Shown here one piece after another: positions 2,846 through 19,426 of a stretch of 38,853 nt of DNA. A program made the position numbers and the translations under genes. The notes beneath the pieces were generated by a model, which had not been told where the DNA came from, did no database searches, and was given only the letters and a program-made list of their open reading frames with translations. The stretch is from a virus, in UHGV virus genome UHGV-0046264, one strand, 5' to 3'. Each line of letters opens with the position of its first letter. Within the stretch, counting starts at the first letter, position 1.

Positions 2846-5438
2846 TTGCATATTCCTTAGCCCAGCGGGGCAGTGATAATGTCTTAATAGCTGGCCATTC
2901 ATCGGTATTCAGGCAGTCAGACAGGGTTCGCAGATTGCGGTGATATTCCTGTTGACCTGCCAGTTTTGCTTCTTCGCCCATCATGAAAATTTCAACCGGA
3001 TAACGTCCGCATTCAATAGTTGTGCTGGCAACCAGAAAAACGAAAGTTGGCTGCACTCCAAACAGTGCTTCATAACCGTCACTGTAGAATGCATCCTGAA
3101 CGTGATAGCGGTAGTCGTAATAAGCGGTTTTGAATCGTTGAATATCCGCCGTAGTTTTCACGTCCATGATCCAGTGAAATTCAGGGATAATTTTGTCCGG
3201 ACGGCACCGACACAAAATTCCTGTTTCAGGATCTTCCCAGTAAATTGATGATTCAGCGTGTCCGGCGCTTTCAACAAGCCATTGCCCCAGCGGCAAAGCC
3301 ATAACGCTTTGATACATGAGTTCAATTTTCCGGCCTTCTTCCGCAGTGATAACCGTTTTTCCTGTGCTTGCGCATTCCATCAGAAACGCTTTCTCTTCTT
3401 CTTTTCCGGCGTTTGTACGGCGGTTAAATTCAGGTGCTACGATAAAGCGGTTACTGAATTCTTCCGGTTCAAGTACCCGGCAGTGGAAAGCAGTTCCTAA
3501 ATCGAGCGTTTTTGTCTTTGTGGTGTCCACGGGGGCATTTTTACGCCACAAATATAGTGCCGGAGTATCAGCAATGTCATCGAGCTGAGACTTACTGATA
3601 CCGGGACCCGCGTGGTAATTCTCATTCGAAATTCCGTAATAAATACCTAGCTCTATGTCTTCTACGATTACGGGATCTGCGACTTCGCCAGTTTCATCAC
3701 TGCAATCGTGATGCGGATCGCTGCCAGCATTCTCATTGTGCGGATGTTCAGCGCCTTCCATTTCCTCCGGATCATTTTCCTTAGCTTCAACCTGACTCTC
3801 TTCATCGAATGTTTCCTGGTATGTTGCGTCGCCCATCATCGCACCACAGTCAGGGCAGTTATCCCCGCCAGTCTGGCCGCAGGCATTGCAGGCTATTTCC
3901 GGTTCCTGTTGCACTACTGGCTCAGGTTGATTCATATCTGGGCTGGTTTTTTCCGTTTCTGGCTGGTTCTGGTACACACAATCGCGAGTCTGGATCCCCT
4001 TTACCCATTTCGGATCGTTCGGGTCGCTAATTCCGTCAACAAATTCACCACGTGATGCAGCAAGCAATTTATCGGCATCGACAGGATTTTTTGATGGAAT
4101 GTTTTTCCGGGCTTCATGGAGTTCTGCCCGCAGTTCCTGATATTTCGCATCAACAGAATTTACCTGTGACTGAGCATCCAGCGGCTGCGTGTCCTGATGA
4201 TGTTCAGTTGCGTCCGGTTCCATTGTTTCAGCCTCTCCCTGTTCAACTGCCGTTGTTCCAGATGGTTGCGGTTTTTCTTCATCATCCTGTTTTCCTTCTT
4301 CTGTTACTCGCTGCGGCATCGGGGCAGAGGAGCGACCGCAGGCAATATCCACGATTTCCGGATCAGGGTTGGCATGATCGGTTTCAGTCAGTACTTTGTT
4401 CAGATATTCAGTGACGTGCGCGGGGATGACCTCGATCCCAATTGGTGCTTCTTTTACGGACGCAACCACGATGGCGCGGGAATAATCCAGCCCGCCAGGC
4501 ATGGTGATGAATTTGTCGCGGAAAACAGAAAAGGGCGGTTTATTTTCAGCGATAATTTCCTCAATGCGTTTAGCGTGTGCCGGATGAAGGTTATAGATGT
4601 CCAGATCCATTGAACGGGCCAGTACGCCAGTGGCTACGTCGCGCGCCAGTGACGTCAGATCGTGTACGAAACCTTCGCCGCGATCGGTGAGGTTTCCGCC
4701 GCCAGCATTAGCACCGGAAGCCGTGCGAGTGATGTGTGAAACACGATTACCCTTCATCCACTCTTTTGTCAGCAGTCCTCGATCGGTGTAGTCAGCGTTC
4801 AGGTATGCTTCGAAAAAAGCAGTTATCAGTCCCAGGTTTGAATTACCAGGATTAGGGAAAACTTTGTCAGTGTCACGAACCAGTTTGTGGAGTTCGCGAA
4901 TTTCCAGCGGGTCGAGCAGGCTGGTTTTGTGGGAAACAGCCAGGGCAGTAACAGCCGGTAGTTCTTCAGCCCGAGCAATGTGTAATGCCTGGAGTCCGTC
5001 GCGTGAAACGTGCGTTACCGGTTTTTCGCTGCCGTGTTGAGCAAGCCAACGAATGGGCAGTTCCTGGCCAGAAATTGGGAGTAGCATATTCTCCTCAATC
5101 TCAGTCATGTCTTCGCCGTTGACGTTGGTATTGCCTTGATAATGAGCGTTGTCTGGTGCTGCTCCCGGTTTTAGTTCCCATGTCATGGAGTCTTTGCTGA
5201 GTTGATAGCGTTCACTCCAGGTAAAATCGATCTCACCTTCAGCGGGCAGGTCATTAACGACAGGAAAATTCGTGGCAACAGCTTTAAAATAGCTGCTCAG
5301 TTTTTTACCTGACTTAACGATCAGGTAGTCCAGAGTGGCACAGGTCGATTCAAAATCGTTGCTTGCCCACAGGACGACGTCAGGTTCACCGGATGATTTT
5401 TTCGCTTTCCGTAACAGGAAGAGTGGTTTTGTGCTCAT
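2838..5438 (-). CDS. recE: RecE exonuclease VIII, 866 aa
   Basis: 866-aa ORF with acidic central region and C-terminal nuclease domain; upstream of and overlapping recT as in Rac. Confidence 0.9.
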
Positions 5439-5539
5439 TGTTTTTTAACCTCAACTCAGATTAAAATTCGTTTTGTTCAGTGAATGATCTTGCCGGATAC
5501 ACACTGTTCATAGCCTGCGCCATACGCAGGCTATTTCTT

Positions 5540-5815
5540 TCAGATTTCACCTTTTAATTTCATTGCAATTAGAGTTGCCAGAAATTCGGCTTTTTTTTCT
5601 GCGGGCAGATTCTTTCCGATATGCACCAGGCACATTTTTTTGACACCTTCATCAAGTGTTTTTACGTTGCCTGATGGACCATCGATATCAACCACAGTGA
5701 ATGGGGTTTCTTTATTTTCTGTTTTAATTACGTAGCCAATGCGCTTTCCTTCCAGATTCACCTCGTGAACAATGTCATCGGTAGTTACAACAGTGGCTTC
5801 ATAATTGGTAATCAT
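5540..5815 (-). CDS. racC: RacC-like protein, 91 aa
   Basis: Internal Met start MITNYEATVVTTDD; position upstream of recE matches Rac. Confidence 0.7.
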   Translation of the reverse strand: MITNYEATVVTTDDIVHEVNLEGKRIGYVIKTENKETPFTVVDIDGPSGNVKTLDEGVKKMCLVHIGKNLPAEKKAEFLATLIAMKLKGEI

Positions 5816-5889
5816 GTTTTTCTCCTTAATTAAGGTTGAGCGAATACCTGCCATTTCTGGCATAAATTCAGTTTCGAATAGTCAATTAA

Positions 5890-6060
5890 TTAAAGTTCAT
5901 GTGCCATCTGGTCTTTTTCGGCACAAGCTTCACTGCAATATTTTCTCGGTTCGTCTTTTTTTAAAATCCCGTGCATGAAGTGAAGCATTCTTTCAATAGC
6001 TTTGCTTTCTTCAACGTCTTTTTTGCAAAGGTGGTAAGCACATTTTATTTTCTTAGTCAT
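5890..6060 (-). CDS. ydaE: YdaE-like small Cys-rich protein, 56 aa (58 aa if started at the upstream ATG at 6066)
   Basis: Hand-translated from the minus strand: (MV)[56 protein letters not shown]; below the 60-aa cut-off of the ORF track; its ATG overlaps the kilR stop (TGATG), suggesting translational coupling. Confidence 0.6.
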   Translation of the reverse strand: MTKKIKCAYHLCKKDVEESKAIERMLHFMHGILKKDEPRKYCSEACAEKDQMAHEL

Positions 6061-6281
6061 CACCATGACTCCGCCTTTACAGGTAAACCATCACAACCGA
6101 GGAAGACTTTAATCATGCGGTCAGTAATGCATGTTTTTGTGGTCAGGTTACGAATATATAGTTTTCGCTTTTTAATATTGTTTGCCGAGGCAATATATGT
6201 CCGGCCTTCATGAAGAACATAATCGCCAGGAGTCACACACTGACGTGGTATTTCATCAGTTCCGAAGTGATGTGCAATCAT
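6060..6281 (-). CDS. kilR: KilR, FtsZ-targeting cell division inhibitor of Rac, 73 aa
   Basis: [46 protein letters not shown]...; start at the internal Met of the six-frame ORF. Confidence 0.8.
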
Positions 6282-6722
6282 AATTATCTCCATTTTTACA
6301 AATGAATTTTGTTGATGCGGTGCCTGGTGCCTCCAGGTGACTGCAACCAGTTAACAATTACAGTCGGCTTTCCCACCCAAACCAATAAGGACTAACATGA
6401 CTTTTAACTGTGCCACGTGCGCTTAGCCGCATTCACCGCATCACAAAATTCACTTTAAAAAGGGCGGACATCAGCCGAACTTCAAGAAAAAAACTGATGC
6501 CGCCAGGACTACACACAGCAATGTCGTTATTTACAACCGGAGGCGCACTCCCACCATTTAAATTTAACAGACAAGACCGACTCTTTATGGATATCGGAAA
6601 TGCGCCTTCGTGTTGTGCCCGGTTTTATTTCACCACCTCCGGGCTTCGGTGGTCTCGGCTATACCCCTACAGCGAGAGCTTGTGTTAACATTTCAATACC
6701 CTTACAGTTGAGAGTTATTGAT

Positions 6723-7211
6723 ATGTTGGATGTATTTACTCCATTGTTGAAACTTTTTGCTAACGAGCCACTCGAAAGACTTATGTATACGATTATCATT
6801 TTTGGTCTCACTCTCTGGCTGATACCGAAAGAGTTTGCTGTCGCATTCAATGCTTATACTGAAATACCCTGGCTCTTTCAGATTATCGTTTTTGCCTTTT
6901 CTTTCGTGGTCGCTATTTCCTTCTCAAGATTGCGAGCACATATTCAAAAGCATTATTCATTGCTACCAGAGCAACGAGTATTGCTTCGTTTATCTGAGAA
7001 AGAAATCGCTGTATTTAAAGATTTCCTTAAAACAGGAAATCTTATTATCACTTCTCCTTGCCGTAACCCGGTTATGAAAAAATTAGAACGGAAGGGCATC
7101 ATTCAACATCAGAGTGATAGCGCAAACTGTTCTTATTATCTCGTCACCGAAAAATACTCCCACTTTATGAAGTTATTCTGGAACAGCAGGAGCAGGCGTT
7201 TTAATCGTTAG
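6723..7211 (+). CDS. sieB: Superinfection exclusion protein B (SieB), membrane protein, 162 aa
   Basis: MLDVFTPLLKLFANEPLERLMYTIIIFGLTLWLIPKEF with hydrophobic helices; start at Met42 of the six-frame ORF. Confidence 0.8.
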   Translation: MLDVFTPLLKLFANEPLERLMYTIIIFGLTLWLIPKEFAVAFNAYTEIPWLFQIIVFAFSFVVAISFSRLRAHIQKHYSLLPEQRVLLRLSEKEIAVFKDFLKTGNLIITSPCRNPVMKKLERKGIIQHQSDSANCSYYLVTEKYSHFMKLFWNSRSRRFNR

Positions 7212-7363
7212 CTTACTGTGTGCTTCTCCAACCATCGTCGTGCGCCAGCTTCGGTTTTAAACGTTTTGCTTTTGGTATACGTCATGGCAGTGAACGTTCC
7301 ATCCTGGTTGGGGAACACGCCGCACACCAGGGATTCGTTATTGCCGAGGTCGATTTTTTGCAT
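7208..7363 (-). CDS. ydaF: YdaF-like small protein, 51 aa
   Basis: Hand-translated: MQKIDLGNNESLVCGVFPNQDGTFTAMTYTKSKTFKTEAGARRWLEKHTVS; convergent with sieB and overlapping its stop by 4 nt. Confidence 0.6.
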   Translation of the reverse strand: MQKIDLGNNESLVCGVFPNQDGTFTAMTYTKSKTFKTEAGARRWLEKHTVS

Positions 7364-7373
7364 TTTTCGCACC

Positions 7374-7508
7374 TCACATCTTGTTGTTGCGGATAGAGGC
7401 TTCTGCCTGCCAGAGATCCCAGTCGTTGCTGCGTAGAGCCTGTACAGCCTGGCTGTAAGTGATATCGCAACAATCCATCAAATACTGAACTACTTCGTAA
7501 TGCACCAT
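7374..7508 (-). CDS. ydaG: YdaG-like small protein, 44 aa
   Basis: MVHYEVVQYLMDCCDITYSQAVQALRSNDWDLWQAEASIRNNKM from an internal Met. Confidence 0.6.
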   Translation of the reverse strand: MVHYEVVQYLMDCCDITYSQAVQALRSNDWDLWQAEASIRNNKM

Positions 7509-7682
7509 CTTATCTCTCCCCTTAACGCCGGGTGGCGGAACTGAAACCTGCTGCACTGCAAAATCTGAACCCTGCCGTCATGTTCATACGCCTCGGGCTG
7601 GCTACTTAACCCCTGACCACTGCCTGGTAACTCGAAGTATTGCCCTGCGTTCTGTGGGGCGGGGTGGGTTGGTAGGTATATG

Positions 7683-8297: not shown

Positions 8298-8552
8298 ATG
8301 AACCAGAAAACACTTGAAGATGTAATCAAAACTGTTCGCGTTTCTGTTGTGGCCGACGTTTGTGGTGTCAGCCAAAGAGCAATCTACAAATGGATGGATA
8401 ACGGAAAATTGCCTCGCACAGAATATACCGGCGAAACAAATTACGCTGAAAAAATCGCTCATGCATCAAACGGATTATTTTCTGCCGATGTAATTTTAAC
8501 TATTGGCAGAAATAAAACTACTACGAAAAAGCTGATGGGAGTTGATTCATGA
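8298..8552 (+). CDS. ydaS: Cro-like HTH DNA-binding protein (YdaS position), 84 aa
   Basis: HTH-like segment (VSVVADVCGVSQRAIYKWMDNGKLP); GAGGGTG ribosome binding site before the internal ATG; divergent from racR; ATGA overlap with ydaT. Symbol assigned from position, not sequence recall. Confidence 0.55.
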   Translation: MNQKTLEDVIKTVRVSVVADVCGVSQRAIYKWMDNGKLPRTEYTGETNYAEKIAHASNGLFSADVILTIGRNKTTTKKLMGVDS

Positions 8553-8971
8553 AAATCAAGCATGAGCACATCGAGTCAGTGTTGTTAGCCCTGGCAGCCG
8601 AAAAAGGGCAGGCATGGGTAGCCAATGCCATTACTGAAGAATATCTGCGCCAGGGGGGCGGCGAATTGCCCCTGGTACCAGGCAAGGACTGGAATAATCA
8701 GCAGAACATCTATCACCGTTGGTTAAAAGGTGAAACGGAAGCGCAAAGGGAAAAAATTCAGAAACTGATCCCTGCAATTCTGGCAATCCTTCCGCGCGAG
8801 CTGCGTCACCGACTCTGCATCTTCGATACCCTGGAACGCCGTGCATTACTGGCGGCGCAGGAAGCGTTAAGTACGGCAATTGATGCGCATGATGATGCAG
8901 TCCAGGCCGTTTACCGGAAAGCGCATTTCAGCGGCGGCGGGTCTTCCGACGATTCTGTCATTGTTCATTAA
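8549..8971 (+). CDS. ydaT: YdaT-like protein (reported Rac toxin partner of YdaS; CII-like position), 140 aa
   Basis: MKIKHEHIESVLLALAAEKGQAWVANAITEEYLRQGGGELPL...; matches my recollection of Rac YdaT; coupled to the upstream Cro-like gene. Confidence 0.75.
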   Translation: MKIKHEHIESVLLALAAEKGQAWVANAITEEYLRQGGGELPLVPGKDWNNQQNIYHRWLKGETEAQREKIQKLIPAILAILPRELRHRLCIFDTLERRALLAAQEALSTAIDAHDDAVQAVYRKAHFSGGGSSDDSVIVH

Positions 8972-8983
8972 GCAAAAGTTTCC

Positions 8984-9841
8984 ATGCTGTTTGTGCTTAT
9001 TCTAAGCAACCGGGCAGCATCATACGGGGCAATTATGGCCGCATTACCATACATGCAACTGTACATAGCTGATTACCTGGCTGACACCATGCATTTGTCA
9101 GCAGAGGAGCATGGTGCGTATTTGTTGCTGATGTTCAATTACTGGCAAACAGGAAAGCCAATACCTAAAAACAGGCTGGCAAAAATTGCCCGTCTGACTA
9201 ACGAGCGATGGGCTGATGTTGAACCATCCTTGCAGGAGTTTTTTTGCGATAACGGCGAGGAATGGGTGCATCTTCGGATTGAGGAAGATCTGGCATCAGT
9301 CAGGGAAAAATTAACCAAAAAATCAGCCGCAGGAAAAGCATCTGTTCAGGCCAGAAGAAGCAGAAAGGAAGCAGATGTTCAAACAAAACAAGAGAGAAAT
9401 TTAACAGGTGTTCAAACAGATGTTGAAGTGGTGTTTGAACATGATGTCAACACAAAGGCAACTAATAAAGATACAGATAAAGATCTAAAAACAGATCCCC
9501 CCCTAAATCCCCCCCGGGGGAATCGAGGTGTCAAAAAGTTTGACCCTCTGGATATTGCTTTGCCGAACTGGATTTCTGTCTCGCTTTGGCGTGAGTGGGT
9601 TGAATTTCGCCAGGCATTGCGAAAACCGATTCGAACGGAGCAGGGCGCTAACGGGGCGATACGGGAGCTGGAAAAATTCCGCCAGCAGGGTTTTTCACCT
9701 GAGCAGGTGATTCGACACAGCATCGCCAATGAATACCAGGGCTTGTTCGCGCCGAAAGGTGTTCGACCTGAGACGTTACTCCGACAGGTTAACACCGTCT
9801 CGTTACCGGATAGTGCGATCCCGCCAGGCTTCAGGGGGTAA
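8984..9841 (+). CDS. ydaU: Replication protein YdaU (DUF1376, lambda O-like position), 285 aa
   Basis: Full-length ORF upstream of a DnaC-like gene; contains two C7 homopolymer tracts in the coding sequence. Confidence 0.7.
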   Translation: MLFVLILSNRAASYGAIMAALPYMQLYIADYLADTMHLSAEEHGAYLLLMFNYWQTGKPIPKNRLAKIARLTNERWADVEPSLQEFFCDNGEEWVHLRIEEDLASVREKLTKKSAAGKASVQARRSRKEADVQTKQERNLTGVQTDVEVVFEHDVNTKATNKDTDKDLKTDPPLNPPRGNRGVKKFDPLDIALPNWISVSLWREWVEFRQALRKPIRTEQGANGAIRELEKFRQQGFSPEQVIRHSIANEYQGLFAPKGVRPETLLRQVNTVSLPDSAIPPGFRG

Positions 9842-9847
9842 CTGACC

Positions 9848-10594
9848 ATGAAAAATATTGCGACAGGCGATGTTCTTGAACGTATCCGCAGACTGGCCCC
9901 GTCACATGTAACCGCGCCATTCAAGACGGTAGCGGAGTGGCGCGAGTGGCAACTTTCCGAAGGCCAGAAACGTTGTGAGGAGATCAACCGTCAGAATCGT
10001 CAGTTGCGGGTGGAAAAAATTCTGAATCGCTCTGGCATCCAGCCATTGCACCGCAAATGCTCGTTTTCGAATTACCAGGTGCAGAACGAAGGGCAGCGAT
10101 ACGCGTTGAGTCAGGCGAAATCCATCGCTGATGAACTGATGACCGGGTGTACAAATTTTGCGTTCAGCGGAAAACCTGGTACCGGGAAGAACCACTTAGC
10201 GGCAGCTATCGGGAATCGCCTGCTGAAAGACGGTCAGACAGTGATTGTGGTTACCGTGGCTGATGTTATGAGTGCCCTGCACGCCAGCTATGACGATGGG
10301 CAGTCAGGCGAAAAATTTTTGCGGGAACTGTGCGAAGTGGATCTGCTGGTTCTTGATGAAATTGGCATTCAGCGCGAGACGAAAAACGAGCAGGTGGTAC
10401 TGCACCAGATTGTTGATCGCCGGACAGCGTCGATGCGCAGCGTGGGGATGCTGACAAACCTGAACTATGAGGCCATGAAAACATTGCTCGGCGAGCGGAT
10501 TATGGATCGCATGACCATGAACGGCGGGCGATGGGTGAATTTTAACTGGGAGAGCTGGCGTCCGAATGTCGTCCAGCCAGGAATTGCGAAGTAA
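9848..10594 (+). CDS. ydaV: DnaC/IstB-like helicase loader ATPase (YdaV), 248 aa
   Basis: Walker [16 protein letters not shown] and Walker [10 protein letters not shown] motifs; length and position as Rac YdaV. Confidence 0.85.
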
Positions 10595-10616
10595 TTTTTA
10601 CCGGGAGAAAAATTTA

Positions 10617-11378
10617 ATGGAGACTGTTTTTGACGCACTGAAAGCAATGGGAAAAGCCACATCCATAGAACTTGCTGCGCGACTTGATATCAGTCGTGAA
10701 GAAGTGCTGAACGAACTATGGGAACTGAAAAAGGCTGGTTTTGTTGATAAAAGCGCGTACACCTGGCGTGTGGCTGATAACAACGTTCAGCAGGAACAGC
10801 CAGCGCAGGCAGAACTGCCGGAAGAAATCACCACAGCAACAGTAGCGAAAATCTCAGAGTGCGATTTAACCGCGACGATTGAACAACGAGGACCACAAAC
10901 GGCTGATGAGCTGGCTACATTGTTTGGTACCACATCACGCAAAGTGGCTTCAACGCTGGCAATGGCAATCAGCAAAGGTCGTCTGATTCGCGTAAATCAG
11001 GGCGGTAAATTTCGTTACTGCATACCGGGCGATAATTTACCAGCAGAGCCGAAAGCAGCATCGGTAGCGGAAACTGATGGTAAGGCCTTTCCTCAGACCG
11101 CAGGTGTTGCGTTACCAGTACAGGAGGCTGCAACACAGGAAGATATTAAAACAGAAACTGTGGCGGACATTGTGCAGTCGCTGCCATCGTTTACTGAAAC
11201 GCGAGCGGATGACCTGGTTTTACCATCACTGCATATGGCAAACCGCGAACTGCGTCGGGCGAAAAATCATGTCCAGAAGTGGGAGCGTGTCTGCGCCGCG
11301 CTGCGTGAGTTGAACAAGCACAGGGATATTGTACGACAGATTACTGATTCTTCCCGCCATGTTGCATCGGAAAAGTGA
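10617..11378 (+). CDS. ydaW: YdaW-like protein (DUF1627 family, apparently intact), 253 aa
   Basis: ORF with GGGAGA ribosome binding site before METVFDALK; N-terminal winged-helix-like region; position after ydaV. K-12 carries a truncated version. Confidence 0.5.
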
Positions 11379-11393
11379 TTGCCGGAGGCACCT

Positions 11394-11816
11394 ATGGCAA
11401 AAGTATTTACACCAGAAGAGCGAGAAAAAATTAAAGGACAGGTTGTTGAACTTGTACCTCTGAGCGGTCGCGAGACGTTACGGCAACTGGAAGCCAAGAC
11501 AGGTGAGACAAGATATCTGATGAGTGTTCTCGCCAGTGAGCTGGTTGCCAGTGGCGATGTATACAACTCTGGTTACGGGTTATTCCCGTCTGAACAGGCG
11601 CGTAAAGACTGGCAAAACGCCCGCAAAAAACTATCGAGGGCAAAGGTGAAGAAACCTGCTGTAGTTGATCCGGACCTTATCTGGTCATTACCAGACGGAG
11701 AAATACGCCGCTATGACAGGCGTCTGAATATAATCTGTCGCGAGTGCCGGAAGAGCGAAGTCATGCAGCGTGTACTGGCGTTCTATCAGGGTAATTTTCA
11801 GGATGTGCTGTTGTGA
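11394..11816 (+). CDS. Hypothetical phage protein, 140 aa
   Basis: ORF with GGAGG ribosome binding site before MAKVFTPEER; no family recognised. Confidence 0.5.
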   Translation: MAKVFTPEEREKIKGQVVELVPLSGRETLRQLEAKTGETRYLMSVLASELVASGDVYNSGYGLFPSEQARKDWQNARKKLSRAKVKKPAVVDPDLIWSLPDGEIRRYDRRLNIICRECRKSEVMQRVLAFYQGNFQDVLL

Positions 11817-11978
11817 GCCAAATTAACAATCAGGGAACTGCGTGAACTGAAAGAGAAATCATAATCCAAATCTGAATAATTAAATTTAGCACTGTAAATA
11901 AAATTTAATCCTTAACCGGAGGGGGGGGGCTGCACCCTCAAAATATTAGGAGGCGGCCCGAAAGGGCGGTAATGAAAA

Positions 11979-12482
11979 ATGACTGAATTAACCAAAAAGC
12001 AATTAATCGAAGAAGCTAAATTAAAAATAGCGATTGAGAAATGCCACCCCAATTCAGGGATGGCACGGGTAGAGGGCGAATTATTCAAAATTGCTCTGGC
12101 ATCGCTGGAAGCAGAGCCAGTTGGTGATTTTTATGAATACAAACCGGATGACTGGTATCAGCGTTCGGCTGGAGATAAAGCGCCAAAATGGACGCCACCC
12201 TATGCCGTTTTTCCAGCGCCCGTAGTGCCGGAAGAAATGGATTTGCTTACATGCCATCTCGATGGTGTAACTGAAACATATGCTGAGGGATGGAACGCTT
12301 GCCGCGCTGCCCTGCTTCAGGGCAAAGGGGAGCCCGGGAAACAAGTTCGCGAATTGACAATGCTGGTTAAACAATTGGTTAGTCAACTGAAGAAACCGAA
12401 ACCGGGCTGCAAATTGCCGGATAAAGTGATGGACTACCTGGAGCGAAGCGGACTTATAAGCGTGGAGGATGTTTTACGATGA
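11979..12482 (+). CDS. Hypothetical protein, 167 aa
   Basis: ORF preceded by a G9 homopolymer and a GNRA hairpin between the AGGAGG and the ATG; no family recognised. Confidence 0.5.
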   Translation: MTELTKKQLIEEAKLKIAIEKCHPNSGMARVEGELFKIALASLEAEPVGDFYEYKPDDWYQRSAGDKAPKWTPPYAVFPAPVVPEEMDLLTCHLDGVTETYAEGWNACRAALLQGKGEPGKQVRELTMLVKQLVSQLKKPKPGCKLPDKVMDYLERSGLISVEDVLR

Positions 12483-12562
12483 CCTGGCCTGAAGCATTCA
12501 CAACGGTAGGAATTGCGATGGCGGTGGCGCTGGTGGTGTATTCGATTTGCCGCTGGGGTTGA
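12479..12562 (+). CDS. Small hydrophobic peptide, 27 aa (MTWPEAFTTVGIAMAVALVVYSICRWG), translationally coupled to the upstream ORF
   Basis: ATGA stop/start overlap with the 167-aa ORF; one predicted transmembrane helix; stop lies 5 bp from the IS5 insertion target site. Confidence 0.4.
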   Translation: MTWPEAFTTVGIAMAVALVVYSICRWG

Positions 12563-12567
12563 TAATA

Positions 12568-12571
12568 CTAA
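12568..12571. repeat. IS5 target site duplication CTAA (left copy)
   Basis: CTAA immediately flanks both IS5 terminal inverted repeats. Confidence 0.8.
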
Positions 12572-13766
<1,195 letters not shown>

Positions 13767-13770
13767 CTAA
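13767..13770. repeat. IS5 target site duplication CTAA (right copy)
   Basis: Direct repeat of 12568-12571. Confidence 0.8.
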
Positions 13771-13774
13771 ATAA

Positions 13775-13793
13775 CCAGCCCTTATGGGGCTGG
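13775..13793. terminator. Stem-loop CCAGCCC-TTATG-GGGCTGG between convergent genes (putative bidirectional terminator)
   Basis: 7-bp GC-rich stem just downstream of the KilA-N gene stop and, before the IS5 insertion, downstream of the 27-aa ORF. Confidence 0.5.
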
Positions 13794-13801
13794 CTAATCA
13801 T

Positions 13802-14575
13802 TTAGAACTGTTCATTGCCATCGAGGTTAGGTAGCATAATTTTTTCAATCAAGGCGAGAGCCTTTTTGTCCCGGTCAGCGAAGTATTTCGGGGCATATTG
13901 CGGCAACCAAATATTGTTAAAATGTTCTTTGAAATCTGCTAAATATTCATTTGGGTACAGCCTTGCAGGGTATACGCGACCATCGGGATATTCATGGTCA
14001 TAGGTAGGGAATGTTTTGGGTTCTACGTTTCTATTATCTCTTAACCATTGTGAAAATACTCTTCCTTGTGAAATGTCAGGAACCATTTTTTCTGGGAGTG
14101 TGTACCCTGCTTGTTCAAGAGGTGCAACCAAGTTGAATGTCAGTTCATTAAGAATAGAAAAGTGCGTGTGAGGAATTCTACTACGATTAACCATGTACCG
14201 TTTTAAATGTACAGGCATTTCTGCTGTAGTTCTTTCCCCTGACATCCATTCACGAACCCATCTTGAAACCTGGACTGCAAATTTGGGCGATAGCCACTGC
14301 GCTAGATTAATAGCGATGTCAGGATGCACCCATGTCCCTTGGTTTTCAGGTCTTCCACCTTTAAATGATTGAATTAACTCCGATATGGGAATTCCCATAT
14401 CGCGTGATAATTCGTCAAAAAACTCTTGAGTAGTTTTGAGTCTAGTGTAATCAGAGAGCAGTTTGCCCGCAGTTCTACACATTGATGTGGCGTTTATGTA
14501 ACCATCTTTGGCACGTAAATGTATTATTTCGCCGTCAATTTCACGAGAAATCAAAGATAATTGAAAGGATGTCAT
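13802..14575 (-). CDS. KilA-N domain protein with uncharacterised C-terminal domain, 257 aa
   Basis: N-terminal ~110 aa fit the KilA-N pattern (YINATSMCRTAGK...GTWVHPDIAINLAQWLSPKFAVQVSRWV); C-terminal ~150 aa not recognised. Confidence 0.75.
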   Translation of the reverse strand: MTSFQLSLISREIDGEIIHLRAKDGYINATSMCRTAGKLLSDYTRLKTTQEFFDELSRDMGIPISELIQSFKGGRPENQGTWVHPDIAINLAQWLSPKFAVQVSRWVREWMSGERTTAEMPVHLKRYMVNRSRIPHTHFSILNELTFNLVAPLEQAGYTLPEKMVPDISQGRVFSQWLRDNRNVEPKTFPTYDHEYPDGRVYPARLYPNEYLADFKEHFNNIWLPQYAPKYFADRDKKALALIEKIMLPNLDGNEQF

Positions 14576-15097
14576 TGAAAATTCCTCAAGTTGGAGAGTT
14601 CTGGAACATTAAGGCGAGGTGGCAGTAATGCACCATCTGTAATCTTTTGATACTGACGTAATCGGACCTGATGTGCAACGCCTTGCAAGTATGTAACTCA
14701 TTGAAAACGATCATTTTTATCTATTGACATCAAATGGCAAACTGTCATTGTGCGGCTATGGCAAGTGGCAAATGCTTATAAATCATATGGATATAAATAG
14801 TACAGAAAGAGTTGTTTTCTCTAGGATATGAGTATACGCCCAATGCTGATTGGTTGAATTTTGTTCTTGTTTTAAAGGGTAAGAGTTTAAAGTGTTGGCA
14901 GTGATGTATTGGATAGTTAGAATTGCTGTGGGTGCTTGAGGCTATCTGCCTCGGGCATGAACACCAAAGGCAGATAGAGAAAAGCCCCAGTTAACATTAC
15001 GCGTCCTGCAAGACGCTTAACATTAATCTGAGGCCATATCTATGCGACACATAGAGATTAGCCTCTTACGGACCGAAAGGTCAAGGAGAAGCAGGCT

Positions 15098-15223
15098 ATG
15101 AAGCAGCAAAAGGCGATGTTAATCGCCCTGATCGTCATCTGTTTAACCGTCATAGTGACGGCACTGGTAACGAGGAAAGACCTCTGCGAGGTACGAATCC
15201 GAACTGGCAGACGGAGGCTCTGA
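15098..15223 (+). CDS. Hok/Gef-family type I toxin homologue, 41 aa as encoded (C-terminus shorter and divergent)
   Basis: MKQQKAMLIALIVICLTVIVTALVTRKDLCEVRIRTG matches the Hok/Gef/RelF transmembrane core, then RRRL-stop; AAGGAG ribosome binding site 9 nt upstream; structured leader with a 10-bp stem at 14933-14968. Confidence 0.7.
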   Translation: MKQQKAMLIALIVICLTVIVTALVTRKDLCEVRIRTGRRRL

Positions 15224-15305
15224 TTCGTAGACTACTAATCTGAGTAAAAGACCCAGCGGGGAAAGAACCACGCCGGGACTAGTTAATAAGATATTTATAG
15301 CGTGG

Positions 15306-15647
15306 CTATTCTTTTTTTGCGGTATAGACTTTTTCGCCTGAGAAGTCTGGAGCTACCCAAAAGTTAATATTAAACTGAGCATCATCGCTTAGTTCAACAC
15401 GGTGCCAGTATTGTGGTGGGCTTGTTGCAAAAGCGCCAGCATTAATGACTACTTTTATCTCCGGTTCAGTAGCATTCTCATCAGCAAAACCATAATATGT
15501 TACAGTACCTTCCATCACGCATAACTGTCCAAAAACACCTGCTGCTGTATTATGATGTGTTAATAACGCTGAAGGTACGTTCTCTTTTGTGAAGAACGGA
15601 GTTGAGCGTTTGATTACCCAGTCTTTAGGAATTCTCTTGTGTGTCAT
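15306..15647 (-). CDS. YeaR-like DUF1971 protein (TehB N-terminal domain-like), 113 aa
   Basis: Pattern RSTPFF...YYGFADE..EP...FATSPPQYWHRVE...FNINFWVAP resembles YeaR/DUF1971 as I recall it; GGAGGTGGTT ribosome binding site before the internal ATG. Confidence 0.55.
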   Translation of the reverse strand: MTHKRIPKDWVIKRSTPFFTKENVPSALLTHHNTAAGVFGQLCVMEGTVTYYGFADENATEPEIKVVINAGAFATSPPQYWHRVELSDDAQFNINFWVAPDFSGEKVYTAKKE

Positions 15648-16514
15648 AACCACCTCCCATAAAACATGCATTATAAATGCACCTTTTTGAGGGTTATGTC
15701 AAGCTGTTATGAAACACATAATTGATATGTTGATTAGAGGAGAAGATAGAATCAATATGGTTGTTTTTCGTATAACTATTTGTTTTACTTTTAGTTTGTG
15801 CATTCTGTGTGTTAGGAATAACTTATTAAAGTTTAACTAAAAAATCTCGATATAGTCCGCATAGATTACTGTTACTGAATCTTATTGTGTGCATTAGTTG
15901 TGTTCTGAAATTTCAATTTAATTACTTATGATATATTTTTAACGATAAATGTTTTCCGGGTGAAAGACAGTGGGGGATGAGATAAGCAATATATCATTAA
16001 TCTTGATTATTTCCAAGATGCCTTTACTGTGCATATAAATAAATCATATACGCATCAAATAATGTAAAGGCATCCTTTTAGATATATCTTATCAAATGTT
16101 AATGATTTGAGTGGGAAACATGATTCCAGAAACTAATCATGCGGCTACTTTATAAAAATAATGCCCATATAAAACAGCCAGCGAAAAGGATTACGGATAA
16201 AAAAGGAGCGAGATGTGCATAGTTGTTATTTTCCATGTTTAACCACCTTAAATAATTGATGATGACGGGATGTGCATCTGTAATGCTTTTGTTGAAATGT
16301 TATGATAAAAAAGAACTTTTTCATAACATTAAAATGTAATTTATCTAATCGTTTTTAATAATAAGTGTTGTATTTCTATCCTTGTATCAGCTATTTGATA
16401 TGTAGTGTTTGTTCATGTTATGTGGAGCTTTACACCATAGCCAGTTTATTTATACTTTATTCGTCAGCCTGAACAACTGGCATCTGCTGCACTGCGCCAT
16501 CGAGAGATTGAGAA

Positions 16515-17114
16515 ATGGCGCATATACAACTGGTCAAACAAACCTCTTCTGGACTACTTCTCCCGGCGACGCCGGAGAGTTGCGATTTTTTGCATCAAAT
16601 CAAAATAGGCGAGTGGATACACGCAGACTTTAAGCGTGTGCGTAACTACGCATTCCACAAGCGTTTTTTCAAACTCCTGCAACTGGGATTCGATTACTGG
16701 ACTCCGGTCGGTGGGGCGATCACGCCTCGCGAACGAAAGCTGGTTTCAGGATTCGTTGATTACCTATGTGAATCAGTAGGCCGGGAACATACGCCAGCTC
16801 TGAGCGAAGCCGCAGAGCAATATCTGAATACAGTTGCGACACGCAGAACCCGGGATACGGCATTGCTAAAGTCGTTTGAGGCTTTCCGCGAGTGGGTAAC
16901 CATTCAGGCCGGATTTTACACCGAGCATCTTTATCCTGATGGTAGCCATGGGCGTCGGGCGAAATCCATCGCTTTTGCGAATATGGACGAAACCGAGTTT
17001 CAGCAGGTTTATAAATCTGTTCTGAATGTGCTGTGGAACTGGATTCTGTTCCGTAAATTTTCCTCTCCGGAACAAGTCGAAAATGTGACCGCGCAGCTGC
17101 TGGAGTTTGCGTAA
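16515..17114 (+). CDS. DUF1367-family lambdoid protein (YbcN-like), 199 aa
   Basis: Position and size typical of the nin-region gene preceding DUF1364 and Q in lambdoid prophages; assigned by recollection of the family. Confidence 0.55.
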   Translation: MAHIQLVKQTSSGLLLPATPESCDFLHQIKIGEWIHADFKRVRNYAFHKRFFKLLQLGFDYWTPVGGAITPRERKLVSGFVDYLCESVGREHTPALSEAAEQYLNTVATRRTRDTALLKSFEAFREWVTIQAGFYTEHLYPDGSHGRRAKSIAFANMDETEFQQVYKSVLNVLWNWILFRKFSSPEQVENVTAQLLEFA

Positions 17115-17404
17115 TGGTGGATTTACGTAAAGCGGCGCGGGGGCAGATGTGCACCGTCAGAATTCCTGGCTACTGCAATCACGATCCGGAAACGTCTGTG
17201 CTGGCGCATTACCGACTGGCGGGAACGTGCGGAACAGCGACAAAACCACACGATATGCAGGCGGCGATTGCCTGTAGCTCATGCCACGATCTAATCGACG
17301 GGCGGGTAAAAACCAGCGATTACACCAAAGAAGAATTACGCCTGATGCATGCAGAAGGTGTTTTTCGCACACAAGAAATCTGGAGAAAGGAGGGATATTT
17401 GTGA
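17114..17404 (+). CDS. DUF1364-family Cys-rich protein (YbcO-like putative nuclease), 96 aa
   Basis: MVDLRKAARGQMCTVRIPGYCNHDPETSVLAH...ACSSCHD resembles DLP12 YbcO; TAATG overlap with the upstream gene. Confidence 0.65.
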   Translation: MVDLRKAARGQMCTVRIPGYCNHDPETSVLAHYRLAGTCGTATKPHDMQAAIACSSCHDLIDGRVKTSDYTKEELRLMHAEGVFRTQEIWRKEGYL

Positions 17405-17943
17405 TTTACCCAACGAATACAGGAAAAAGCGGAGAACACCTTCGTCTCGCCACGCTGGAAAGTGTCTGGATTCAGGGCAAACTGCGTATGTGGGGGCGCT
17501 GGTCGTATATTGGCGGTGGCAGGTCAGGAAATATGTTCAATCAGTTGTTGGCATCCAAAAAATTGACGAAAACAGCCATCAATGAAGCCCTGCGCAGAAT
17601 GAAAAAAGCGGGAATAGAGAAAGCTGAGCTGGAAGCGTTTTTGCGAGAGATGATCAACGGCAAGCAAAAGAGCTGGCTGGCGCATTGTACTGATGCAGAG
17701 GCGTTATGTATTGATCGAGTCATAAGTGAGGTGCTGGCAGAGCATCCTGGATTGATTAGTGTCCTCCGGCAACGGTATGAAGGACGGGGGATGACTAAGC
17801 GCAAAATGGCTGAATTGCTAAATGATGCACATCCTGAGTGGTGTTTTAGCACATGCGAAAAGCGAATTGCTAATTGGTTGGCTGTTGCTGAGTATGCCCT
17901 ATATATTCCCATGCGAGAATCATTTGCTCAAAAAATAGCTTGA
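17401..17943 (+). CDS. Putative late-gene antiterminator Q-like protein, 180 aa, GTG start
   Basis: AAGGAGG 7 nt before the GTG; GTGA overlap with the DUF1364 stop; lies directly upstream of a short leader ending in an intrinsic terminator and then the lysis cassette. Assigned by position, not by sequence recognition. Confidence 0.5.
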   Translation: MIYPTNTGKSGEHLRLATLESVWIQGKLRMWGRWSYIGGGRSGNMFNQLLASKKLTKTAINEALRRMKKAGIEKAELEAFLREMINGKQKSWLAHCTDAEALCIDRVISEVLAEHPGLISVLRQRYEGRGMTKRKMAELLNDAHPEWCFSTCEKRIANWLAVAEYALYIPMRESFAQKIA

Positions 17944-18026
17944 TTTTTTACGCATAAACTGCTTCAATTCCGGTATGCTTCGCAAAGCTGTATCGCGAGG
18001 CGAACCAAGCGCATGAACTTTACCAG
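17944..18026 (+). promoter_or_regulatory. Predicted late promoter and qut-like region (PR' analogue)
   Basis: Located between the Q-like gene and a tR'-like terminator; no confident -35/-10 hexamers assigned. Confidence 0.3.
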
Positions 18027-18050
18027 AACCCGCCATTGAGCGGGTTTTGT
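18027..18050 (+). terminator. Intrinsic terminator (tR'-like): AACCCGC-CATTGA-GCGGGTT followed by TTTTGTTGTTT
   Basis: 7-bp GC-rich stem plus T-tract about 85 bp downstream of the Q-like stop. Confidence 0.7.
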
Positions 18051-18164
18051 TGTTTCTGGTACTGGTGAACCTGATGTTTCATTTCTGGAGCGCGATTCCT
18101 GGCGGAATACCTAGAATCGAGACATTCTGGTAAAATTGTTTTCAGTACAGGATGTGGAGGTGAG

Positions 18165-18734
18165 ATGAGAGAACTACCTAAAGATTATTTTTTAGGAGTA
18201 GATGATGAGCTCGTCGATTATCTTGAAAAACAAGGGGAAGAGACGATACGAGAGATTCATCTTTCTAACAAAACCAATGTTGAGAATGGATACAAACTTC
18301 TGAACATTCAGATTGTTGGAATTGGTTCATCTTTTTTATTGCTGACACAGAAAACTAATTTCGATTTTCTCACCGCCGGAATTACCACATTTACATTACT
18401 ATGGACATGGTGCGCCATTTACTTGGTATGTACTGGTTTATCTGTGAAGGTTAGGGGCCTGATCAATGCCCCTCCTGATCATATATATCATGAAAAATAT
18501 AAGGATATGGAGCCCTCGAGCTTTAAAATATTCGCTGATGCAGGATATTTAGGACCTGATAAGTTATTGCCGCTTATACGAAGGTATCGCCTTGTTGACT
18601 TGAGTGATACAGCAAGAGAGTTACTGTTGGAAAATGAGAAAATCCGCACGAGTCTCGATAAAGCAAGGATGTATACCATCCTTGCTCCGGTAGCGGCGAT
18701 GTTTATCTCGGCTGTTTTTTTATATGTTCAATGA
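18165..18734 (+). CDS. Hypothetical multi-pass membrane protein in an AT-rich moron between Q/tR' and the lysis genes, 189 aa
   Basis: GGAGGTGAG ribosome binding site; soluble N-terminus (~55 aa), two central hydrophobic helices and a C-terminal hydrophobic helix; AT-rich composition unlike flanking phage genes. Confidence 0.6.
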   Translation: MRELPKDYFLGVDDELVDYLEKQGEETIREIHLSNKTNVENGYKLLNIQIVGIGSSFLLLTQKTNFDFLTAGITTFTLLWTWCAIYLVCTGLSVKVRGLINAPPDHIYHEKYKDMEPSSFKIFADAGYLGPDKLLPLIRRYRLVDLSDTARELLLENEKIRTSLDKARMYTILAPVAAMFISAVFLYVQ

Positions 18735-18864
18735 CTGAGTCGGCAGAATCTCCAACAAAAACACGACGTGTAGCAAAGTCTGTAGTACTTTGTGTTGGAG
18801 TTGGTTTTGGTGCCACGGGTTGCTGAGGTTTATTTTCACCTTGTGGTTTGTTTTTTTCAGACAT
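18703..18864 (-). CDS. Hypothetical small Lys/Pro/Gln-rich protein, 53 aa, convergent with and overlapping the 3' end of the 189-aa ORF
   Basis: AAAGAGGA ribosome binding site before the ATG; MSEKNKPQGENKPQQPVAPKPTPTQSTTDFATRRVFVGDSADSVIEHIKKQPR; 32-nt 3' overlap with the opposing gene. Confidence 0.45.
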   Translation of the reverse strand: MSEKNKPQGENKPQQPVAPKPTPTQSTTDFATRRVFVGDSADSVIEHIKKQPR

Positions 18865-19081
18865 AAAAATCCTCTTTGTTTGAATTGTTACTTTTGGCGA
18901 TTTAACGATATCAAACACGAGTATATACCGCCAGAAGCTTAATCTGGCACTCCATCTGGCCCCGGCATGTCCCGGGGCTTTTTCGTTGTTAGGCTCTGGA
19001 AACATCCTCGACTTCTTGTTAGCAAGCCTGAGAGCCTGAATCTTACACTTAGCACCATCCGAACTCTCGGAGGTGAGGCTT

Positions 19082-19423: not shown

Positions 19424-19426
19424 TTA

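What the first reader, a model, noticed from the sequence alone, without database searches (positions are those of the whole stretch)
11394..12562. Unknown ORFs ending in a translationally coupled 27-aa hydrophobic peptide
A 140-aa and a 167-aa ORF of unrecognised family are followed by a 27-aa single-helix peptide (MTWPEAFTTVGIAMAVALVVYSICRWG) whose ATG overlaps the 167-aa stop (ATGA). Coupled small hydrophobic peptides are typical of membrane-depolarising toxins, effectors or immunity partners. The module sits between replication genes and the nin-like region, a slot where lambdoid prophages often carry cargo, and IS5 has landed 5 bp after its stop.
Basis: partly seen in the sequence, partly recalled or inferred. 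Interest (0 to 1): 0.6.

Follow-up and report, generated by a model that had tools for sequence, protein, structure and literature searches.

The report
Overlooked 27-residue phage membrane peptide gene
The 27-codon ORF is a real, conserved but almost never annotated gene for a tiny membrane-spanning peptide that closes a highly variable block of early genes in about 30% of E. coli genomes; its function is unknown, and nothing shows it to be a toxin or a dedicated partner of the 167-aa protein.

Summary
The sequence-level observation holds. ORFs of 140, 167 and 27 aa lie at 11394-12562. The 27-aa ATG overlaps the 167-aa stop (ATGA), and IS5 (12572-13766, CTAA duplication) follows. The three ORFs are not one module. 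The 140-aa protein is DUF977/LygF ("Ren-like"), a usual neighbour of replication genes in Rac-type prophages. The 167-aa protein is a mosaic member of a large uncharacterised family whose relatives often carry DUF551.

The 27-aa ORF is an autonomous conserved unit, consisting of a GGAGG ribosome-binding site plus the ORF:
- It occurs in 1634 of 5426 complete E. coli genomes, with up to 7 copies per genome.
- In a junction-anchored sample, 140 of 162 loci keep an intact 27-codon frame.
- pN/pS is 0.34 in its frame, against 1.22 and 1.47 in the other two frames.
- Its start overlaps the upstream stop in 111 of 114 loci.
- The identical peptide follows at least three unrelated upstream C-termini.
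- RefSeq leaves it unannotated, and I found no paper on it.

Best reading: a single-pass inner-membrane microprotein with an invariant G11-x3-A15 face, expressed by translational coupling as the last gene of a variable early-gene array. The toxin/immunity reading is untested and unsupported. The real cargo lies just downstream: a BstA-like defence gene and hok/sok.

The parts
11394..11816 (+). 140-aa DUF977 / LygF ('Ren-like') gene. It is a conserved neighbour of the replication genes and is not part of the peptide unit.
   Evidence: Pfam PF06163 at 1.2e-26; phrog_142 at 1e-44. Annotated LygF or 'DUF977 family protein' in relatives.
11817..11978 (.). Intergenic mosaic junction between the DUF977 gene and the 167-aa gene.
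   Evidence: Sub-segments match many genomes in other gene contexts (DUF4752, DUF7167). No promoter-like site was found.
11979..12482 (+). 167-aa mosaic protein: a conserved N-terminal helical hairpin (..IALASLEAEP), a variable middle, and a conserved C-terminal module (ELTMLVKQL..LISVEDVLR).
   Evidence: phrog_660 at 2.7e-50 plus partial matches to 8 other PHROGs. 2026 homologues, many of them fused to DUF551. No Pfam or PDB match. AF2 mean pLDDT 55, with only residues 1-45 above 70.
12464..12469 (+). Shine-Dalgarno GGAGGA for the 27-aa ORF, embedded in the 3' end of the 167-aa gene.
   Evidence: Read from the sequence. A GGAGG 7-12 nt upstream of the ATG is present in nearly all junction types at other loci.
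12479..12562 (+). 27-aa single-pass membrane peptide gene, with its start overlapping the upstream stop (ATGA).
   Evidence: ORF; distribution; coupling in 111 of 114 loci; 140 of 162 intact; pN/pS 0.34; hydrophobic core 7-23, Kyte-Doolittle 2.1.
12568..12571 (.). Left copy of the IS5 target-site duplication, CTAA.
   Evidence: The uninterrupted relative has a single CTAA.
12572..13766 (-). IS5-family insertion sequence (transposase ORF 12718-13734 on the minus strand).
   Evidence: Pfam DDE_Tnp_1 at 1.9e-35 plus DUF772. 91% identical to K-12 IS5Y over 12572-13767. Absent from ON470614 and from strain 7/2.
13767..13770 (.). Right copy of the target-site duplication, CTAA.
13775..13793 (.). Hairpin CCAGCCC-TTAT-GGGGCTGG between the convergent peptide and KilA-N genes. 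It is probably a bidirectional terminator. IS5 now separates it from the peptide.
   Evidence: Terminator-like call on the minus strand in the IS5-free relative. Plus-strand fold -16 kcal/mol, z = -3.1.
13802..14575 (-). BstA-like KilA-N protein. This is the adjacent cargo, not part of the peptide unit.
   Evidence: Pfam KilA-N at 4.3e-27; PADLOC BstA at 3.2e-21.

Best explanation
The 27-codon ORF is a genuine, autonomous phage gene for a small inner-membrane protein. It is the fixed last gene of a hypervariable array of early accessory genes in lambdoid, Rac-type and Stx phages of Escherichia and Shigella.

Shown:
- The conserved unit is about 105 nt (GGAGG, then an ATG overlapping the upstream stop, then 27 codons). 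It stays intact while the DNA on both sides is exchanged.
- The frame is under purifying selection.

Inferred:
- Ribosomes finishing the upstream gene re-initiate at the overlapping ATG, so the peptide is made whenever the early operon is translated. Here that operon is the rightward one running cro-cII-O-DnaC-DUF1627-DUF977-167aa. In other phages it is the leftward ea22/DUF551 region.
- The peptide inserts as one transmembrane helix, N-terminus out and C-terminus in (E5 at the N-end, R25 at the C-end, W3 and W26 at the two interfaces).
- It acts through the invariant small-residue face G11-x3-A15 (with A17 and S22) by packing against another membrane helix, either its own copies or a host or phage membrane protein.

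The target and phenotype are unknown. It is not a specific partner of the 167-aa protein.
For: - Distribution: 94 phage records by tblastn and by blastn. 1634 of 5426 complete E. coli genomes, 1-7 copies each, and 163 places on plasmids.
- Coupling: the upstream stop overlaps the ATG in 111 of 114 DNA-anchored loci (ATGA 83, TGATG/TAATG 28), with GGAGG upstream.
- Integrity: of 162 distinct loci found through the junction sequence alone, 140 carry an intact 27-codon ORF, 6 a disrupted copy and 15 other sequence.
- Selection: pN/pS is 0.34 in the ORF frame against 1.22 and 1.47 in the other frames. An independent anchor gave 0.41 against 0.84 and 1.82. Among close variants there are 14 synonymous and 17 non-synonymous distinct mutations against an expected synonymous fraction of 0.27, p = 0.02.
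- Residue conservation: M1, A6 and G11 are invariant. A15, A17, S22, I23, C24, W26 and G27 are at least 97% conserved over 68 haplotypes. P4, G11, A15, S22, R25 and W26 fall on one helical face.
- Length variants of 23-33 aa all stay in frame.
- No RNA structure: z = +0.68, and the consensus fold is -6.7 kcal/mol with no covariation support.
- Autonomy: the identical peptide follows the LISVEDVLR-type (13 loci plus 11 close ..EDVLR/..EDILR-type variants), DUF551-type (20) and L0139-type (7) C-termini. Downstream there are terminator hairpins or unrelated genes.
- The exact peptide is deposited in a few genomes as 'bacteriophage protein' or 'hypothetical protein'.
Against: - There is no direct evidence of translation or membrane insertion. 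An EHEC Ribo-seq small-gene paper's supplements do not contain the sequence.
- Purifying selection is moderate, not extreme. W3R, P4S/R, V20E and R25S/G variants circulate.
- About 4% of copies are disrupted, and the Shigella phage POCJ13 copy has a stop at codon 3.
- The indel hotspot has a 6-nt repeat (GCN-RTG), so in-frame indels are expected by slippage and are weak evidence.
- Sequences are related and recombining, so the pN/pS pairs are not independent.
- Topology and the helix-packing mechanism rest on sequence rules only.
Confidence: 0.6

Rival explanations
1. One reading: the peptide is a membrane-depolarising toxin, or the effector or immunity half of a two-gene cargo module with the 167-aa protein.
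For: It is small, hydrophobic and single-helix and is translationally coupled, as hok is to mok. It lies in a region rich in toxins and defence genes: hok/sok at 14930-15100, a BstA-like gene, and TA genes or hokW downstream of the peptide in ArgO145 and 933W.
Against: - The identical peptide is coupled to at least 3 unrelated upstream proteins, so there is no dedicated partner.
- There is no match to Hok/Gef or any other toxin family in Pfam, NCBIfam or PADLOC.
- There is no antisense RNA family and no structured mRNA, both typical of type I toxins.
- No promoter-like site lies upstream, so it is not an independently expressed unit.
- It sits in early lytic operons that are silent in lysogens, and genomes carry up to 7 copies.
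Confidence: 0.12
2. The peptide is a detachable membrane anchor or subunit for whichever protein is encoded just upstream. Coupling would ensure 1:1 co-translational assembly.
For: Coupling is nearly universal. One natural in-frame fusion exists, in which a 143-aa coiled-coil protein ends in the peptide (P0161). Many upstream proteins share an N-terminal IALASLEAEP module.
Against: - Upstream C-termini fall into at least 6 unrelated classes, and not all upstream proteins share an N-terminal module (933W L0139-type, GVEVK-type).
- Peptide subtype does not track the upstream class.
- In some loci only a 12-codon remnant of the upstream gene is left while the peptide stays intact (L212, L213).
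- There is a single fusion cluster among 1.8 billion representatives.
Confidence: 0.13
3. The conserved roughly 105-nt island is mainly a cis element. It could be a homology anchor for exchanging the variable gene cassettes, or a trailer ORF that keeps ribosomes on the mRNA up to the terminator. The peptide itself would have no function.
For: Recombination breakpoints lie exactly at its edges. In 13 junction loci the sequence diverges right after ATGA. Flanks on both sides are non-homologous between loci. DUF977 at the 5' side and the peptide at the 3' side bracket arrays of 0.7-3.7 kb.
Against: The substitution pattern is frame-specific (pN/pS 0.34 against more than 1.2 in the other frames). 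Families 60-67% identical in protein keep G11, A15, Y/F21, R25 and W26. No RNA structure is present. This role can coexist with a functional peptide.
Confidence: 0.1
4. A chance ORF in an intergenic tail.
For: 7 of 180 short ATG-ORFs in this window are equally hydrophobic.
Against: All the conservation evidence above.
Confidence: 0.02

Closest known systems
Mosaic ea22 / DUF551 genes of the exo-xis region of lambda and Stx phages (Ea22 variants V1-V3; PMC10834534, PMC7093339)
   Same: The peptide gene directly follows DUF551-type or Ea22-annotated genes in VT1-Sakai, PhiR12_1, PhiR5_1, phage-plasmids and many prophages. The 167-aa protein shares its N-terminal and middle modules with DUF551 proteins. 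Both gene sets are mosaic and expressed early.
   Different: The 167-aa protein itself has neither the Ead/Ea22 nor the DUF551 Pfam signature. The exo-xis literature I read does not mention the small ORF. In phi24B, the model phage of those studies, the DUF551 gene is followed by a DUF1382 gene instead. In this window the array lies in the rightward operon, after the replication genes.
Small single-pass membrane proteins that modulate larger membrane proteins (KdpF, AcrZ, MgtS, CydX; from established knowledge)
   Same: Size (27 aa against 29-49 aa). One hydrophobic helix. A conserved small-residue packing face. The weakest of hints to KdpF (E = 0.024).
   Different: There is no homology: 14.7 bits against a cut-off of 26.85. 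It is phage-borne, not chromosomal. No target is known, and it is not adjacent to a membrane-complex operon.
Type I toxins Hok/Gef (mok-hok-sok)
   Same: A short hydrophobic peptide whose translation is coupled to an overlapping upstream frame. A true hok/sok lies 2.4 kb downstream here, and about 170 nt downstream in 933W.
   Different: No Hok_Gef match. It is half the length and has no periplasmic Cys-containing tail. There is no antisense RNA or folded leader. The upstream frame is a full-size protein gene of varying identity.
Lambda Ren / DUF977 (YdaW, LygF), for the 140-aa ORF
   Same: The position immediately after the replication genes. Pfam DUF977 and PHROG 'Ren-like exclusion protein' matches.
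   Different: The function of DUF977 has not been tested, and the 'Ren-like' name comes from remote-homology clustering only.
Phage-encoded small membrane proteins for superinfection exclusion (T4 Imm, HK97 gp15; prophage DicB acting on ManYZ, PMC6832061)
   Same: Small phage or prophage proteins acting at the inner membrane on host proteins.
   Different: Those proteins are expressed in lysogens or have their own promoters. This ORF has no promoter-like site and sits in early lytic operons. No homology was detected.

Membership tests
Pfam DUF977 (PF06163), for the 140-aa ORF | Whole-protein score above the gathering cut-off of 22.1 bits | tested here: met
   93.8 bits, E = 1.2e-26, covering 1-136 of the protein and 1-134 of 134 in the profile.
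Pfam DUF551 (PF04448), for the 167-aa ORF | C-terminal DUF551 domain (..PDGWISC..HWMPLPEPP) | tested here: not met
   No hit in the Pfam scan. Its relatives P0035, P0040 and P0048 carry the domain in place of the LISVEDVLR module.
Ead/Ea22-like, for the 167-aa ORF | Pfam/InterPro Ead_Ea22 signature (N-terminal segment plus coiled coil) | tested here: not met
   The Pfam scan at E <= 0.1 returned only a sub-threshold MCP-like hit. No PDB chain, including the lambda Ea22 CTD, matched at E <= 1.
PHROG 660, for the 167-aa ORF | Full-length profile match | tested here: met
   E = 2.7e-50, residues 1-167 against profile 3-193 of 193; function unknown.
Hok/Gef type I toxin, for the 27-aa ORF | Hok_Gef protein family match | tested here: not met
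   No Pfam family at E <= 0.01.
Hok/Gef type I toxin, for the 27-aa ORF | Cis-encoded antisense RNA and a structured mRNA leader | tested here: not met
   The Rfam e-value scan of 11000-15500 finds sok only at 14930-15100 and nothing at the peptide. Fold z = +0.68 with no covariation.
Hok/Gef type I toxin, for the 27-aa ORF | Growth arrest or membrane depolarisation on expression | not testable with these tools
   Needs an expression experiment.
KdpF (TIGR02115), for the 27-aa ORF | Score above the cut-off of 26.85 bits | tested here: not met
   14.7 bits, E = 0.024, over 12 residues only.
Known anti-phage defence proteins (PADLOC), for the 140-, 167- and 27-aa ORFs | Any PADLOC model match | tested here: not met
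   No family for any of the three at E <= 0.1.
Small single-pass inner-membrane protein (a functional class, not a homology family), for the 27-aa ORF | One hydrophobic stretch of at least 17 residues flanked by interfacial or charged residues | tested here: met
   Residues 7-23 have a mean Kyte-Doolittle value of 2.11; across subfamilies the range is 1.8-2.3. E5 lies before the stretch and R25 after it; W3 and W26 flank it.
Small single-pass inner-membrane protein (a functional class, not a homology family), for the 27-aa ORF | Translated and found in the membrane fraction | not testable with these tools
   No proteomic or Ribo-seq evidence was found.
IS5, for 12572-13766 | DDE_Tnp_1 plus DUF772 transposase, about 1.2 kb, with a 4-bp YTAR target duplication | tested here: met
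   Pfam 1.9e-35 and 3.7e-21. CTAA on both sides. 91% identical to K-12 IS5Y.
BstA abortive-infection protein, for 13802-14575 on the minus strand | N-terminal KilA-N domain plus a BstA C-terminal region | tested here: met
   KilA-N at 4.3e-27 over residues 14-112. PADLOC BstA at 3.2e-21 over residues 119-238. Defence activity was not tested.

The most novel reading that the evidence does not exclude
A 27-residue inner-membrane microprotein, present in roughly a third of E. coli genomes and missed by standard annotation, has a defined early function. That function could be blocking a host membrane protein used for phage DNA entry, modulating FtsH/HflKC-type control of the lysis-lysogeny decision, or depolarising the membrane. 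It would be conserved as the fixed 3' end of the hypervariable ea22/DUF551-type accessory arrays of lambdoid and Shiga-toxin phages, so part of the phenotypes ascribed to those regions would belong to it.
Probability: 0.2. Interest if true: 0.6.

Novelty: new member of a known kind. Interest (0 to 1): 0.4.

Why it matters
Small phage membrane proteins are a known kind. This family, however, is very common: about 30% of complete E. coli genomes, including Stx1 and Stx2 prophages of O157:H7. RefSeq does not annotate it, and it is absent from the exo-xis/ea22 papers read here.

Constructs and deletions of these accessory regions in phages such as VT1-Sakai, BP-4795 or 933W may include or remove it without anyone noticing. 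It also marks a fixed boundary of a gene-shuffling hotspot, which helps in delimiting variable cargo in prophage annotation.

For this window, the practical result is a re-labelling:
- 140 aa: DUF977.
- 167 aa: a mosaic protein related to the DUF551 family.
- 27 aa: a conserved microprotein.

The true cargo is the neighbouring BstA-like gene and hok/sok.

Tried and rejected
- Full-text search for the peptide string found nothing. The supplements of the Sakai small-gene Ribo-seq paper do not contain it.
- The exo-xis papers do not mention a small membrane ORF.
- The AF2 model of the 167-aa protein was too poor (pLDDT 55) to justify a fold search. There was no PDB sequence match.
- The listing of cluster members put the peptide in a cluster led by 121-aa DUF551 proteins. 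Inspection showed no fusion, only partial ORFs read in the peptide frame, so this was dropped as evidence.
- The first protein-guided set of 80 loci was biased towards identical peptides. It was replaced by DNA-anchored samples.
- K-12 has no copy in CPS-53, Rac or e14, so there is no K-12 gene name. DLP12 and Qin were not checked.
- An RNA-element reading was tested and rejected.
- The phi24B exo-xis region was checked and lacks the ORF. The accession NC_027984 is not in the collection.
- In-frame indels are not counted as strong evidence, because the hotspot repeat has a period of 6 nt.
Full report
**1. What is in the window**

- A 140-aa ORF runs from the ATG at 11394 to 11816; a TTG at 11379 would give 145 aa.
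- A 162-bp gap follows, then a 167-aa ORF at 11979-12482.
- A 27-aa ORF lies at 12479-12562. Its ATG shares TGA with the upstream stop (..CGATGACC..).
- GGAGGA lies at 12464-12469, 9 nt before the ATG.
- IS5 occupies 12572-13766. It has a DDE_Tnp_1/DUF772 transposase on the minus strand, CTAA on both sides and 91% identity to K-12 IS5Y. The element therefore starts 9 bp after the stop, and its target duplication starts 5 bp after the stop.

**2. Context**

The window is an intact Rac-type prophage. It is 99.3% identical to K-12 Rac over 1-7674 and 8543-11066. K-12 Rac lacks window 11067-19919, which includes the whole finding.

The nearly identical phage vB_EcoS-666R9 (97.3% identical over the 11379-11571 segment of the finding) and E. 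coli strain 7/2 carry the same genes without IS5: O-like (DUF1376), DnaC-like, DUF1627, DUF977/LygF, a hypothetical 167-aa protein, then a convergent KilA-N gene and Hok/Gef.

In the IS5-free form, the peptide stop is followed by the hairpin CCAGCCC-TTAT-GGGGCTGG. This scores as the terminator of the convergent gene and is also stable on the plus strand (z = -3.1). IS5 inserted between the peptide and this hairpin.

**3. The two larger ORFs**

The 140-aa protein is a clear DUF977 member (93.8 bits against a cut-off of 22.1) and matches phrog_142 'Ren-like exclusion protein'. In other phages it is followed by other genes. It is a recognised family of untested function.

The 167-aa protein has no Pfam, NCBIfam, PADLOC or PDB match above any family cut-off. 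It matches phrog_660 end to end, and eight other PHROGs in pieces.
- It has 2026 homologues, all from Escherichia, Shigella or Salmonella and all unnamed. Many carry DUF551 at the C-terminus.
- The alignment shows a conserved N-terminal roughly 50 aa (..IALASLEAEP), a hypervariable middle and a conserved C-terminal roughly 45 aa (ELTMLVKQL..LISVEDVLR).
- AF2 gives only an N-terminal helical hairpin with moderate confidence (mean pLDDT 55), so I did not run a fold search.
- This mosaic build resembles what has been described for Stx-phage ea22 genes, one variant of which carries DUF551 (PMC10834534). The 167-aa protein itself carries neither signature.

**4. The 27-aa ORF elsewhere**

Both blastn and tblastn find it in 94 phage records, including 933W, VT2-Sakai, VT1-Sakai, BP-4795, Min27 and ArgO145, down to about 60% protein identity.
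- In 933W it follows L0139 and precedes sokW/hokW.
- In VT1-Sakai it follows H0068 and precedes xis-int.
- In ArgO145 it precedes a TA pair.
- In PhiR12_1 and PhiR5_1 it follows 'Ea22' (DUF551) genes.
- None of these records annotates it, and neither does RefSeq/PGAP.
- A few GenBank genomes list the exact peptide as 'bacteriophage protein' or 'hypothetical protein'.

It is present in 1634 of 5426 complete E. coli genomes (1-7 copies each) and at 163 plasmid places. Across one genome per species, it is found only in Escherichia and Shigella, apart from three small contigs (369-1780 bp) that look like contamination. K-12 has no copy in CPS-53, Rac or e14.

**5. Is it coding?**

My first, protein-guided sample was biased, so I replaced it with DNA-anchored samples (searches replaced).
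- Anchoring on 17 nt inside the ORF gave 114 loci. Codons 9-26 gave pN/pS of 0.41, against 0.84 and 1.82 in the other frames.
- Anchoring on the upstream junction only (two junction types), and so blind to the ORF, gave 162 distinct loci. Of these, 140 have an intact 27-codon ORF, one has a stop-loss extension, 6 have a disrupted copy (frameshift or stop at codon 3), and 15 carry unrelated sequence after ATGA.
- Over 68 haplotypes and 43 peptides, pN/pS is 0.34, against 1.22 and 1.47 in the other frames.
- M1, A6 and G11 are invariant. A15, A17, S22, I23, C24, W26 and G27 are at least 97% conserved.
- Variants of 23, 25, 31 and 33 aa arise from in-frame loss or gain of Ala-Met/Ala-Val units. 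The repeat period is 6 nt, so this is weak evidence.
- The RNA has no unusual structure (z = +0.68) and no covariation.

I conclude it is a protein-coding gene under moderate purifying selection.

**6. Coupling and autonomy**

In 111 of 114 loci the upstream stop overlaps the start (ATGA 83, TGATG/TAATG 28), and a GGAGG lies 7-12 nt upstream. The upstream genes are not one family.
- A DUF551 type (..HWMPLPEPPQEVNQ; Pfam confirmed).
- The LISVEDVLR type, as in this window.
- A 933W L0139 type.
- At least three further types.

The identical peptide sequence is found behind the first three. In two genomes only a 12-codon remnant of the upstream gene remains while the peptide is intact.

Downstream there are either intrinsic-terminator-like hairpins or unrelated genes. 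In about 40 of 114 loci a DUF977 gene lies 0.7-3.7 kb upstream on the same strand.

The common layout is therefore replication genes, DUF977, a variable gene or genes, then the peptide. The other common layout is the ea22/DUF551 block before xis-int, or beyond attP as in 933W. The peptide is the fixed 3' end of a shuffling array, not the partner of one protein.

**7. Likely mode of action (inferred)**

- The hydrophobic core spans residues 7-23, with a mean Kyte-Doolittle value of 2.1.
- E/D5 at the N-end and R25 at the C-end suggest N-out/C-in topology by the positive-inside rule (established knowledge). One longer variant adds KNVRRD at the C-end (P0159).
- W3 and W26, 23 residues apart, fit the two membrane interfaces.
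- The invariant G11 and the near-invariant A15, A17 and S22 lie on one helical face together with P4, R25 and W26. This is the pattern of a helix-packing motif of GxxxA type (established knowledge).

I therefore propose a small inner-membrane protein, made early after induction or infection by re-initiation, that binds another membrane helix. Which helix, and with what effect, cannot be told from sequence.

**8. The toxin/immunity reading**

Nothing supports it beyond size and hydrophobicity.
- There is no family match above any cut-off.
- There is no antisense RNA or leader structure.
- No promoter-like site was found.
- There is no fixed partner.

It is not excluded, because toxicity can only be tested by expression. 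The anchor/subunit reading has one natural 143-aa fusion in its favour, but the diversity of upstream proteins counts against it. A role as a homology anchor for cassette exchange may coexist with coding.

**9. Literature**

I found no paper that holds the peptide sequence string, and the DUF551, exo-xis/ea22, prophage small-protein and EHEC small-gene papers I searched or read do not describe it. In phi24B, the main model for exo-xis work, the DUF551 gene is followed by a DUF1382 gene instead of the peptide, so those experiments did not include it.

**10. Verdict**

The novelty is modest: a widespread, unannotated and uncharacterised member of the known class of phage small membrane proteins. 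Interest 0.4.

Noticed in passing
window 13802-14575 (-): A 257-aa protein with an N-terminal KilA-N domain and a C-terminal match to the BstA abortive-infection defence family (PADLOC 3.2e-21). It is convergent with the peptide gene. This, rather than the 167-aa/27-aa pair, looks like the defence cargo of this slot.
   Followed up: partly
window 14930-15100 (+): A full-length hok/sok locus (Rfam sok, 104 bits against a gathering score of 59). The same toxin system lies about 170 nt downstream of the peptide in 933W, and the 933W-type downstream sequence follows the peptide in about 25 of 114 viral contigs.
   Followed up: partly
window 1-38853; K-12 Rac (L218): The window is an intact Rac-type prophage. 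K-12's cryptic Rac is 99.3% identical on both sides but lacks window 11067-19919: the end of the DUF1627 gene, DUF977, the 167-aa gene, the peptide, the BstA-like gene, hok/sok, and the nin, Q and lysis genes. K-12 'ydaW' would then be the truncated DUF1627 gene.
   Followed up: partly
window 12568-13793: IS5 inserted at a CTAA inside the T-rich tail of the terminator hairpin of the BstA-like gene. This separates the early rightward operon from that hairpin. The copy is only 91% identical to K-12 IS5Y.
   Followed up: partly
window 12512-12538 and homologues (P0150, P0152): The middle of the peptide gene is a short GCN-RTG repeat (A-M-A-V-A-L-V-V). Natural variants gain or lose units in frame, giving peptides of 23, 25, 31 and 33 aa, that is, transmembrane helices of different length.
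   Followed up: partly
L215 (Shigella phage POCJ13) 1201-1281; several viral contigs: Some copies are inactivated. POCJ13 has TAG at codon 3, and a few contigs carry a 1-nt deletion after ATGAC. W3R, P4S and P4R variants occur in several loci.
   Followed up: partly
P0161 (143 aa): A coiled-coil protein fused in frame to a divergent copy of the peptide (..ESNKMSWPDAFAIAGVAMSIALIVFAICRWG). It is a single natural fusion that would make a tail-anchored protein.
   Followed up: no
window 11817-11996: Parts of the intergenic region upstream of the 167-aa gene (11817-11922 and 11870-11996) recur at 86-92% identity in many genomes, next to different genes (DUF4752, DUF7167). This marks a second mosaic junction.
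   Followed up: no
L208, L209, L210 (genome contigs); PP818812.1: Near-identical copies sit on contigs of 369-1780 bp labelled Segatella copri MAG, Acinetobacter idrijaensis and Xanthomonas pisi, which is probably E. coli contamination. An 'Actinobacillus phage vB_Apl-pPE4' record carries a 90% identical segment of this E. coli-type region.
   Followed up: no
L220 (phi24B) 2682-2911: In phi24B the DUF551 gene vb_24B_6c ends ..PQEVNRG and is followed by an overlapping GTG-started DUF1382 gene in place of the peptide. A 23-aa 'vb_24B_5c' is annotated inside the end of 6c in another frame.
   Followed up: partly
window 10566-11378 (+): A 270-aa protein with an N-terminal winged-helix region and DUF1627 (1.3e-98). 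Its start overlaps the end of the DnaC-like gene by 29 nt.
   Followed up: no
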